Shown here in pieces: positions 340-49,760 of a DNA stretch of 64,000 nucleotides (position 1 is its first letter; each line of letters begins with the position of its first letter). Under the pieces are notes generated by a model that was given only the letters and a program-made list of their open reading frames with translations, did no database searches and was not told the DNA's origin. The stretch spans positions 141,360,001-141,424,000 of the forward strand of contig OX597815.1 in the NCBI GenBank assembly GCA_951406725.2. Direction: 5' to 3'. A program made the translations under genes and the position numbers. Origin of the DNA: Octopus vulgaris (lineage: Eukaryota).

Positions 340-1085
340 ACTATGAACTCAATTTATTAATATATCCACAAGAATAATGGTGACCACCCATAAACAAACG
401 ATGCGGACACACACACACACACATAGACACATACACATGCATGTGACCATCTTCCCATACCATACATTCATGCATAGAAATATCCAAATATAAATTCAAA
501 AAATTACAAATTGCTATGCGCACACACACATGTACATACACACACGTGTACATACACACATGCACAAAACTATTGGTATAAAAACAATTCCATAAAGAAA
601 GAATGTCCTCGCAATGTAACCCCGCAAAGATCACTCAGCCGTGGAATGCACCATTTATTCAATATATAACTATAGAGACACACTGAATTACTATCACAAA
701 TATAACCATTAAAACGAAATATAAATTAAGAACCTTACAAACACAAAATAAAAGAAAACAACTAAAAAATTATAGATTATGAATAACAATAATTACATAA
801 ATAGAAAAAGAAATAATTCAACAAAAGCGCTCAGTTACATCATACCAATAAACCATAGATAAATGAATAACACTCCTCACCTACAACTTCAAGAAATACA
901 AGAGCAACATCAGAGAAAACATGAAAAATGGAAAACATGAAAAATTTAACCGACCAACGAATACAAACACTAGGACACGTATTTATACCCCCATTATCCA
1001 GTAATAATATTTCACCCGAAGATCGTAATTGCACGAAACTCGAGTCCTGACGCAAATTCTCCATTTCACTTTCAATATAAAATTA
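340..1085 (+). mobile_element. Decayed Penelope-like terminal repeat-type sequence with degenerate hammerhead motif (1012-1050)
   Basis: A-rich tract ending in CCGAAGA-tcgtaattgcac-GAAA-ctcgag-TC with a palindromic stem III (ACTCGAGT). Patchy inverted similarity to 28-260 (e.g. taataaattgag / ctcaatttatta). Confidence 0.4.
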
Positions 1086-1964
1086 CGTGTGTGTATGTGT
1101 GTGTGTGTGTGCATGTTAGTGTAGTTTTTATATGAAATTGGTGCATAGATAACATATGTTTTGGGTAAAAGCTATATACATATATCAAGCCGTATGCATA
1201 TATGTTATATAAGTTGAATTGACAACTAATGGTATGATGCAAACACTAAGAATAGATTAACTGACTCTTCTTGTAAGGATACATAGAATAACAGCAATGA
1301 TAAACTTATACAATAGCCAAGAATGAGGATGGAAGATGGTCACTTATGCCTTTGACATTCTCTATATACGTAAAGTCACCCACACAGCGAATGTGTCTGC
1401 GTAAAACGCGCATTTGAATTATTGATTTGTGAGGAACTTCAAGTCGTACTTGTGAGAGTGTAAATAGAATTGTGGAAATCTATTAGACCTGTAATATAGC
1501 AGGTAGCTTGCAACATTATTCTTTCTCTTGGTGATCCTTAAGAATTGTTAAACATTATGATGATGTCTACGTAATCATTATTATGAACATCACAGTCGTA
1601 AACTATAATGCATAAATGTATAAGGAACATTAAAACAAATTCCAGTCTGTAGAAAAAACACTGTCCGAATAGCAATGCAGTAATAGCAATGCAATAAAAG
1701 CAATGCAGCAAACGTTATGAAATAACCATTGTTTTATAAAAAAAATGTATTTCCATTTGTCTTTATAGTATATGTAATCTCATGTGTATTTATGAGTGTA
1801 TGCTTGGGTGCATGCGTCTCAACGTGTCTGTGTGCTGTGTGTCCGTATGTACGTGTGCGTGTCTGTGTGCGGTCCTCTATGTATGTATATACGTATATAA
1901 GTACACATTTGTGTATAAATATAGCTATATCTATACCAAAGTATGTACAAATTTATATATATCT

Positions 1965-2025
1965 ATATATATATATATATATATATATATATATATATAG
2001 CGTATATATATATATATATATATAC
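1965..2025. repeat. (TA)n microsatellite
   Basis: Direct reading; source of the YIYI ORFs. Confidence 0.95.
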
Positions 2026-3647
2026 ACACGCTAACATAATATTTCTCTGTGTGTATGTGTGTTTGTGTTTGTATGTTTATCCGTGTGTATATTTGTGTCT
2101 GTTGTTTCAGATAGATTAATATCCACATTGCTGAAATATGTTCTTATATGTAGTTAATTAATGCCCTGTCGAACAGAAAACATATTTATAGCAACTATGA
2201 AATGTGAAGTTGTTTTTAGAAGGCTTTATTGCTCTTGTATGTCAGTAATGATCTGTCGTTCAAAATCAATGACCTCCATGTTTTACGATAATACATCCAG
2301 GCTATTATTTTACTATTTCACTGAAGCCCAGTGGTGGCGGGGTGATATGACGTATTGTATTAATTCACTGCATCCTATTATTCACTGGAAGCTATTTCTT
2401 TCCTTTTTGATACGATTGCTTTCGTTGTTCCAAGGGATAGTTTATTGTGTAACGCTGTTTTGAATGGTGTTCTTTTTAGCATTTATTATTTAAATTAACA
2501 ACCTATCAAATGCTGCTTATTTTAAGGAAATACCATCCATTCGTTCACACTTCTGCTCAGAACAGTCAAATGAATCAAAGAGAAACTTTTTTTCCTCTGC
2601 ACGGTTACTTTTGATCCATGGCCAGCAGTGAATTAATTCTAAACAGAAACGATGTTTTATTATATACATTATGAAACCACGCGAACATGTTTATAATAAA
2701 CACATTATAATGGAGTGAATGAATTTTGTTTTTATTGTTGCTTCAATCGTAACATTAGGAGCACCATGTCGGTGAGGCATGACTTCTTAATAATGGATCT
2801 CTTTCAAAATGATATGCTTTAACACGCACAGCAACCGTTTCTTAGTGTCTATACAAACCACTAACGTTGCTTAAAAGGTTTGTGAATTTCGGTAAACAGG
2901 AATATAAAATATATCCGAGTTTACTTTGATGAATGGATACATAAAATATAATAATATATAATAAATATACCCAGCAAAATTTTAAAGCTTCACCGATGAG
3001 ACGATATCCAAAACTTATAAATGTATAAGTTATGAAAACCTTAAATTCAAGTAAAAAATAAAGTACTGAAGCAGTGTTATATGCTTAATTTATTTGTTTA
3101 TAGATTGATATTTTTGAAAACTACAGTGGCTGAATGAAAGGTCACTATAGAAAGACGGCTTAAAGTATTTTTAAAAATGAAATCTGGGAAAAATATATAT
3201 GCATTTGAATACTGGTATCCAAGGTATTAGTTAGATATCAGAAATTCTAAGGTACACATCTTTTACTGCATGTTTTTCATATCTATATTTACAATTTATT
3301 TTAAATGGATCGATTACTGACAGTCGTCATTTATCCTATACTTGATGGATGTTCGAGATGAAACAACCTACCATGTAATGAATATATGAATATAGCAAAT
3401 ATAGATTCTAAAGTCGAGGTTAATAGTTTTATCGTGGTTTGGACATCTAAAAATATTTGTGCGCTTATGATTGAATGAAGGGAGTCATAAATGAATTCTA
3501 AAAATGCATTACTATATTATCAATATATATATATAATCATATCAAAAGGAAATGGAATTTAATTAAAATTAAAACATTCAATCAAAATTTTCATTTCCAA
3601 TGGTCTAACGTGCAAAGAAATTAGTCAAGAAGACTGTATATTAGTCA

Positions 3648-3833
3648 TACGATATAGTGTATATTTATACACATAAGGAATCCACTTGTAGGGAATTCAA
3701 CACATTAGAAAGAACAGCTAGGTTCTGTAAATAATTTTATCCATTATTTTTGTGGTTTACAGAACCTAGCTGTTCTTTCTAATGTGTTGAATTCCCTACA
3801 AATGGATTCCTTATGTGTATACACTATATCGTA
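3648..3833. repeat. Near-perfect long inverted repeat (hairpin)
   Basis: Arm 3648-3731 is the reverse complement of 3756-3833 except for one 6-nt indel and one mismatch; 24-nt loop. Confidence 0.95.
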
Positions 3834-47909: not shown

Positions 47910-48093
47910 AAGATTTGACACAGCCGGCAATTTCGAGGTCGGAGTATGGTCGATTACATCAACCCCAGGTCTCAACAAGTACTTATTTTATCGACTCCGA
48001 AAGTATGAAAGTCAAAGTCAACCACTGCAGAATTTGAATTTAGAACGCGAAAATCGACGAAATGCCGCTAAGCATTTTACGCGCTCGTTGCCT
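47910..48093 (-). mobile_element. SINE family C
   Basis: gtcgattacatcaacccc..gtacttattttatcgactccgaaagtatgaaagtcaaagtcaac..gaatttgaa..gaaatgccgctaagcattt. Confidence 0.8.
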
Positions 48094-49134
48094 ATGCTAT
48101 GCCATCCATTCAGAAGATGTATTTCGAATCAATAGTTTACGAAAACAGCACAAAATAAACGTTGGGAACAAATTCAAAACGATCACTGTAAAGAATAGTA
48201 CAGTAAACATTATATGTGACATTTGAAATAGAATGAATAATTTTCCCTATACAGAAATGTGAACGCAGTCATAGAAACACAAATATCCATTTCCTGAAAC
48301 GTTTACATATACACTCTTATCATTCCGATTTTCTTTTACGTAGTCTACTCATATCAGAGAAATGTCATTGAGTGATTGTTTTTAATTGATTTTTATAAGA
48401 CGTTATGAATAAATGTTACCTTTTCTTTTTGAAGTGGGAGTTCTCAATATATATGTGTGCCTCTGTATGTGTACACTGATTTTAATTTGTATATAGAAAT
48501 GTCTAAGGTCGATAACCGACTGAACGTGTTATATATCATCTATTGTATTCATCTTTTACGCACATAACATTCTGTCAGTGTTAATGAGATCTACAACAAA
48601 AACAAAGTTCATATACATGCAAATTAACTCCTGTAACGATATTGGATTACATAATACTATATGGAAATTCACTTTCATCTTAAATATTTCAAGAATATCC
48701 AATAGTGTTTATTCCCAGATGAGATTATGCGTCTGGAATGGATCACTTAATTTCCTTAAGTTATTTTAAAACAAATTAAAATGCAGTTCATCAATTACGG
48801 CCGTTTAAAGAGTATGGAATAGCCATTCCTTCACATGATTAATATACGATATAAACTATACTATCAGCATACAAACAGCCAGTTGCTAATATGTTTGATA
48901 GTTGGCAGATTGCCACATCATTCCGTGATCCGAAGCAATTAGGTTGATTAGATAACAGCTAGTTTCAAGTAGTATGTTTCCGATAAACATTTCATATTAT
49001 ATGAGTAAAGCATAATAAGTCTATTGACTATAATATTTGTAGTAGAACCGGTAGGGTGTCAGAGAATCTACTTTACCCAGGATATTTTCAGTAGATTCTG
49101 TAATTTAACGTAACAATATTCGAAGACTACGCTA

Positions 49135-49270
49135 GGCGCTGGCATAGCAGAGTGGTTGAACAGCTCACAATAAAGCAACGTAGTTTCCAGGTTCAGTTCC
49201 ACTACACGGCAAATTGGGCATGTGCCTGTAATTATAGTTTCGAGTCAAACGGAACTGAATTAAAGCCTTT
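49135..49270 (+). mobile_element. SINE family A, diverged 5' part
   Basis: ggcgctggcatagcagagtggtt...ccaggttcagttccactacacggcaaattgggcatgtg aligns with 21263-21360. Confidence 0.6.
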
Positions 49271-49290
49271 TCATATATATATATATATAC

Positions 49291-49760
49291 ATATTGTTGT
49301 ATTTTAGGATGTTTTATTGCATTTTAGGATCTTTGCCAAATAAGCACACTCACTGTATATTTTTTCTTCACTCGTTTATTACTGTTCTTATTTTATTATT
49401 TTAACTCATGTCCATTGTTCGGAAATCTTTCGGCACGCATCTGGGATCTCTTCAGCGACACTTATTCTTTTCGCGTATGTCTAGCTACGCTTGCTCCATT
49501 TCTGTTCTTGTAAGGTGTGCATTTTTGTGCGCGCATGCGTTTGTGTACATCTTTGTGTACATCTTTGTGTGTGTGTGTGAGTGTGTGTGTGTGTGTGTGT
49601 GAGTGTGTGCGTGTGTGACGAAATATTTCTGGACAATGGACATGAATTAAACAAATAAAATAAGAACAGTAATAAACGAGTGAAGAAAAAATATACTGTG
49701 CGTGTGTTTATTTGGAAAAAAAGACCGTCCCGATATACAACAATATCGCTTTCAACACAC
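49291..49760. repeat. Fold-back repeat (family H3), copy 2, with HHR-like motif at 49416-49460 on the minus strand
   Basis: Arms 49291-49439 and 49612-49746 are inverted; minus strand reads tgtcg-CTGAAGA-g...c-GAAA-gatt-TC-cgaaca. Confidence 0.85.

What the first reader, a model, noticed from the sequence alone, without database searches (positions are those of the whole stretch)
1012..49460. Multi-family hammerhead landscape alongside Penelope-like RT remnants: candidate cephalopod retrozyme/pLTR system
Seen: three good HHR motifs and about eight degenerate ones (1012, 2986, 6032, 22143, 40972, 43003, 47180, 49416). They fall in at least four unrelated sequence contexts, usually next to microsatellites and often in inverted arrangements. 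The window also holds three PLE coding remnants (30330, 43860, 50295). Established: PLEs carry HHRs in their terminal repeats and leave inverted partial repeats, and non-autonomous HHR retrozymes exist in animals. Inference: this genome hosts several short ribozyme-bearing families mobilised by PLEs. HHRs in PLEs are known; these particular families may not be described.
Basis: partly seen in the sequence, partly recalled or inferred. Interest (0 to 1): 0.75.

Follow-up and report, generated by a model that had tools for sequence, protein, structure and literature searches.

The report
Octopus retrozymes mixed with Penelope ends
Three of the ribozyme-like motifs in this stretch belong to two related, protein-free jumping repeats of about 470 and 505 bases that are likely copied by Penelope-type enzymes from a probably circular RNA (a kind already known in other animals), four others are ordinary broken ends of Penelope-like retrotransposons, and four cannot be told from chance.

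Summary
Partly confirmed; the 'landscape' is three different things. (1) Three intact type I hammerheads (19912-, 21743+, 27564+; 3 against 0.05 in shuffles) belong to two related non-coding families, A (~505 nt) and B (~470 nt), each with about 2,000 or more first-look hits in the genome. Their copies run round one fixed unit without reaching any ORF (up to ~2.1 units), cross the predicted cut site, end at two fixed sites beside (TA)n, and often form two-armed inverted insertions with one short and one long end: the Penelope-like (PLE) footprint. Helices covary between subfamilies. They are new members of the known animal non-LTR retrozymes; the RNA circle, cleavage and the partner PLE are not shown. 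(2) Sites 22143, 49416, 43003 and 47180 are 3' ends of 5'-truncated PLEs, a published pattern. (3) Sites 1012, 2986, 6032 and 40972 found only themselves and do not beat chance. PLE coding remnants: 30330 real, 43860 weak, 50295 unconfirmed (a nuclease remnant lies at 51.3-51.6 kb). This scan has noted similar octopus retrozyme families at other loci.

The parts
19587..19983 (-). Family A left arm, 3' part: hammerhead (core at 19912-19906, predicted cut after 19862), downstream segment and long 3' end
20720..21019 (-). Family A left arm, 5' part: upstream segment (20846-20720) preceded by part of the previous round of the unit (21019-20865); about 87 nt around the unit junction are missing in this arm
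21028..21911 (+). Family A right arm: crosses the unit junction, is interrupted by a SINE-like insert (about 21263-21672), carries the hammerhead (core 21743-21749, predicted cut after 21789) and stops at the short 3' end. With the left arm it forms one two-armed insertion
27510..27760 (+). Family B copy, 5'-truncated (about 0.55 unit); intact hammerhead core 27564-27570, predicted cut after 27612; ends at the short 3' end beside (TA)n
22072..22299 (.). Family C fold-back (PLE 3' terminus plus inverted arm); decayed minimal hammerhead on the minus strand, core 22182-22176
49330..49535 (-). Family C copy (PLE 3' terminus); core 49455-49449, helix II damaged
49612..49790 (+). Second family C arm, from helix II to the 3' end
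42810..43125 (+). Family D copy (3' terminus of a Neptune-like PLE); minimal hammerhead with U6 core at 43008-43014; the CT-rich tract upstream (42265-42740) is also seen in other long copies
47000..47250 (+). Family E copy (PLE 3' terminus); hammerhead-like boxes but no fitting three-helix fold
30290..31172 (-). PLE reverse-transcriptase remnant, broken by stops and frameshifts; cut off at its 3' side, no hammerhead attached
51286..51642 (-). PLE GIY-YIG endonuclease remnant
43860..44005 (+). Possible old PLE linker remnant (weak)

Best explanation
The three intact hammerheads belong to two related non-coding repeat families (A about 505 nt, B about 470 nt) whose copies run round one fixed unit, and these are likely retrozymes that a Penelope-like retrotransposon protein copies in trans from a probably circular RNA into (TA)n sites. 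Shown: fixed unit, no ORF, more-than-unit copies, two fixed 3' ends, two-armed insertions, covarying helices. Inferred: a copy longer than one unit is transcribed, the two ribozymes cut out a monomer that is ligated to a circle; the PLE protein nicks both strands of a TA-rich target and starts reverse transcription at two internal sites about 150-160 and 230-260 nt past the cut site, one from each DNA end; each arm stops at a random point, sometimes after more than one round. The other real motifs (families C, D, E) are the ribozyme-bearing 3' ends left by 5'-truncated insertions of three autonomous PLE families.
For: Fixed unit: direct hammerhead-to-hammerhead spacings of 433-476 nt in B (10 loci, two of them repeats of another; one further locus at 786 nt across a (TA)n run) and 505-546 nt in A (2 loci). 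Among loci picked for the 5' part, 27 of 30 B and 27 of 30 A alignments continue upstream into the family's own 3' part at one junction; 21 of 30 B and 13 of 30 A copies exceed one unit. Longest B copies 2.04 and about 2.1 units. PLE protein matches occur in 13 of 175 A/B/B2 loci and by their coordinates none runs into a unit's 5' end. No copy ends at the predicted cut site; 69 of 74 distinct B loci end at one of two sites. Of 27 two-armed B insertions 18 pair a short with a long end, 2 short-short, 0 long-long, 7 unclassed; A: 8 of 15. Successive rounds within one B insertion are 94.5% alike against 91.9% between insertions, higher in 33 of 37, with 75 shared rare variants against about 16 expected. 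B versus sister subfamily B2: one compensatory change in each of four helices, 97% of cells paired. A young intact PLE family in the same genome (718-aa RT plus GIY-YIG frame, about 5.19-kb tandem unit, own hammerhead in 16 of 20 fetched loci) has the same wrap-around layout. Two internal RT starts and double-strand nicking of AT-rich DNA were shown in vitro for a lizard PLE (PMC11167929).
Against: No RNA evidence for a circle, for expression or for cleavage. In PMC11167929 ribozyme cleavage was not needed and uncut RNA was the main template, so a linear multimer could give the same footprints. No array of three or more units was seen (the longest query was 1.65 units). No autonomous PLE homologous to A or B was found among the six PLE families examined. 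The isolated motifs do not fold better than shuffles, and the covariation rests on two subfamilies, so on about four events. Loci are the best-scoring 12-30 of each search, not random samples; A alignments are inflated by an internal (TA)n run.
Confidence: 0.65

Rival explanations
1. A and B are non-autonomous PLE partners, but the template is a linear, uncut read-through transcript of a more-than-unit genomic copy; no circle is involved and the ribozyme is a passenger or only trims the RNA.
For: Most copies are under two units; PLE reverse transcription starts internally and did not need ribozyme cleavage in vitro (PMC11167929); 8 of 9 Xenopus retrozyme dimers did not cleave in vitro (bioRxiv 10.64898/2026.07.22.740005).
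Against: With random 5' truncation a linear route loses length at each generation, yet copies of 2.0-2.1 units exist and both rounds share private variants; compensatory changes point to selection on the ribozyme fold.
Confidence: 0.22
2. A and B are just solo terminal repeats of an autonomous PLE that I did not find, like families C, D and E.
For: All insertion marks are PLE marks, and single or inverted minimal hammerheads from truncated PLEs are common (PMC4209133). C, D and E looked similar until longer copies were read.
Against: C, D and E extend upstream into unique sequence and ORFs; A and B wrap round to their own 3' part in 27 of 30 loci each, and no ORF continues a unit in 175 loci.
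Confidence: 0.08
3. The more-than-unit copies arose by local DNA duplication (satellite birth) of inserted monomers.
For: Rounds within one insertion are more alike than copies elsewhere; this route is proposed in bioRxiv 10.64898/2026.07.22.740005.
Against: The same junction recurs at dozens of unlinked loci, copies have fractional lengths with scattered 5' ends and fixed 3' ends, and they sit in two-armed insertions.
Confidence: 0.05

Closest known systems
Animal non-LTR retrozymes (coral, Mytilus 350-390 bp, axolotl; Cervera and de la Pena 2020, PMC7229834; vertebrate survey bioRxiv 10.64898/2026.07.22.740005)
   Same: Non-coding unit of a few hundred bases with one type I hammerhead, low GC (0.30-0.31), head-to-tail copies, thousands of hits, PLEs in the same genome.
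   Different: Units are longer than the 170-400 nt RNAs of PMC7229834 (within the 51-972 bp range of the preprint); copies seen are 0.4-2.1 units, dispersed, not long arrays; B has a helix III that could form in a monomer; circular RNA is shown for coral, mussel and axolotl, not here.
PLE pseudo-LTRs with minimal hammerheads, inverted arm and tail (PMC4209133; PMC8557442; PMC3846280; PMC11167929)
   Same: Families C, D, E are this. A and B share the 5' truncation, head-to-head inverted arm, microsatellite targeting and two alternative 3' ends.
   Different: A and B have no ORF and wrap round a fixed unit; their tail is about 85-95 nt against the published 30-40 bp; family D has a U6 core that I did not find in the passages read (A6C is described in PMC3088659).
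Hydra-clade PLEs (Craig et al. 2021, PMC8557442)
   Same: The young 718-aa PLE shows the DKT, RWR and CxCX5C motifs given for that clade and inserts at (TA)n; the window's RT remnant is 47% identical to it over 149 aa.
   Different: Clade assigned from motifs by eye, no tree built; its hammerhead and terminal repeat are not homologous to A or B.

Membership tests
Animal non-LTR retrozyme (families A, B) | Type I hammerhead with intact core and helices | tested here: met
Animal non-LTR retrozyme (families A, B) | Short non-coding unit, no ORF, low GC | tested here: met
   about 470 and 505 nt, GC 0.31 and 0.30; no PLE frame continuing a unit in 175 loci
Animal non-LTR retrozyme (families A, B) | Head-to-tail copies with two consecutive complete hammerheads | tested here: met
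   B: two intact motifs in 6 of the 30 longest copies. A: two loci with direct tandem motifs, intactness of both motifs not scored. The window copies themselves carry one motif per arm
Animal non-LTR retrozyme (families A, B) | Long multimeric arrays in at least some loci | tested here: inconclusive
   maximum about 2.1 units; the search could not favour longer arrays
Animal non-LTR retrozyme (families A, B) | Expressed as unit-length circular RNA | not testable with these tools
   only assembled contigs of runs not on record as RNA were on offer
Animal non-LTR retrozyme (families A, B) | Self-cleavage in vitro | not testable with these tools
   needs bench assay
Animal non-LTR retrozyme (families A, B) | Large target-site duplications when present | not tested
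   flanks are mostly (TA)n, which hides duplications
EN+ Penelope-like element 3' terminus (families C, D, E) | RT and/or GIY-YIG frame upstream on the same strand in long copies | tested here: met
   C: nuclease frame in L281, RT motifs upstream, family motif 1.1-1.4 kb downstream in 8 of 24 loci. D: 1 of 25 loci (L231) plus L082. E: 1 of 12 loci (L245). Pfam itself did not name these frames
EN+ Penelope-like element 3' terminus (families C, D, E) | Minimal hammerhead near the 3' end | tested here: met
   C 11 of 25 loci intact; D with U6 core. Not met for E
EN+ Penelope-like element 3' terminus (families A, B) | Continues upstream into a PLE ORF | tested here: not met

The most novel reading that the evidence does not exclude
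A and B are a long-lived octopus retrozyme lineage whose hairpin-bearing tail, kept between the two families, is the recognition signal for a PLE protein that copies one RNA circle from both ends of a DNA break at once; their genomic footprints give a ready substrate to test circular-template retrotransposition, a step proposed since 2014 but not shown in the papers read.
Probability: 0.4. Interest if true: 0.65.

Novelty: new member of a known kind. Interest (0 to 1): 0.4.

Why it matters
Animal retrozymes are thought to be spread by Penelope-like enzymes through RNA circles, but the papers read argue this from co-occurrence and homology. Families A and B carry the PLE insertion signature on an ORF-less unit, with rounds of one template and paired 3' ends, so they define a small RNA and two start sites for a direct in vitro test. 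The rest of the finding is an ordinary consequence of PLE abundance. No report of these families in cephalopods turned up in my searches, but I could not check Repbase, Dfam or the library behind PMC13282606.

Tried and rejected
Rfam scan: no hammerhead family among the 150 of 219 matches shown. Exact-repeat finder: swamped by microsatellites. Relaxed descriptors: no excess over shuffles. A B-like segment directly ahead of a PLE frame in L040 suggested that B is a PLE 5' UTR; rejected, because the frame is the middle of a Poseidon-type element nested there and the segment belongs to sister subfamily B2, itself a non-coding circle. Intron idea (a donor-like word before and an acceptor-like word after the hammerhead in A and B): no such joint in contigs of 8 runs; contigs drop rare forms, so no verdict. 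Expression: no RNA holder listed; no evidence either way. Partner search: A and B match none of six PLE families (the young 718-aa family, the family of the window RT, a Poseidon-type family, and those of C, D, E). Sites 1012, 2986, 6032, 40972 against 346 fetched loci (1.27 Mb): nothing beyond chance-level words. Pfam does not recognise the PLE frames. A second atlas look-up for the 43860 frame did not complete, so that remnant stays weak.
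Full report
Setting. The window lies in a 2.80-Gb assembly of 227 contigs. I read it as an octopus genome from its size and repeat content; that is inference, the record is not named. It is rich in microsatellites.

Noticed in passing
window 43008-43040 and loci L213-L237: Family D, a young PLE terminus (95-98% identity), has U in place of the conserved A6 of the hammerhead core in all 31 fitting sites found in the fetched loci, with helices I and II intact; activity unknown.
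   Followed up: partly
L184, L192, L197, L201, L209: A Poseidon-type PLE family carries a U3-A8 core variant with a palindromic helix III near its 3' end; this variant is described in PMC4209133.
   Followed up: partly
L076-L095: Young PLE family with Hydra-clade motifs: one 718-aa open frame, many copies split into 506 + 225 aa at the same place, tandem unit about 5.19 kb with a long non-coding part.
   Followed up: partly
tails of A (L151) and B (L102): The segment between the two 3' ends holds a hairpin whose flanks are kept between A and B while the stem sequence differs; candidate protein-recognition signal.
   Followed up: partly
window about 19978-20722: An unrelated insert splits the left arm of A at its (TA)n run; its ends look Helentron-like (label recalled, not tested).
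   Followed up: no
window 21263-21672, 36839-36972, 49871-50235, 61697-62044: Copies of an abundant SINE-like repeat (label recalled).
   Followed up: no
window 52049-53479 (-): Broken LTR-retrotransposon remnant with RT, RNase H and integrase zinc-finger matches.
   Followed up: no
window 3647-3834 and 46139-46669: Two fold-back repeats (84% and 71% complementary arms) that may be MITEs or old two-armed PLE insertions.
   Followed up: no
window 37171-37562 (+): Two short frames that read like a Tc1/mariner transposase remnant by eye; Pfam gave no match for the one frame scanned.
   Followed up: no
   Followed up: no
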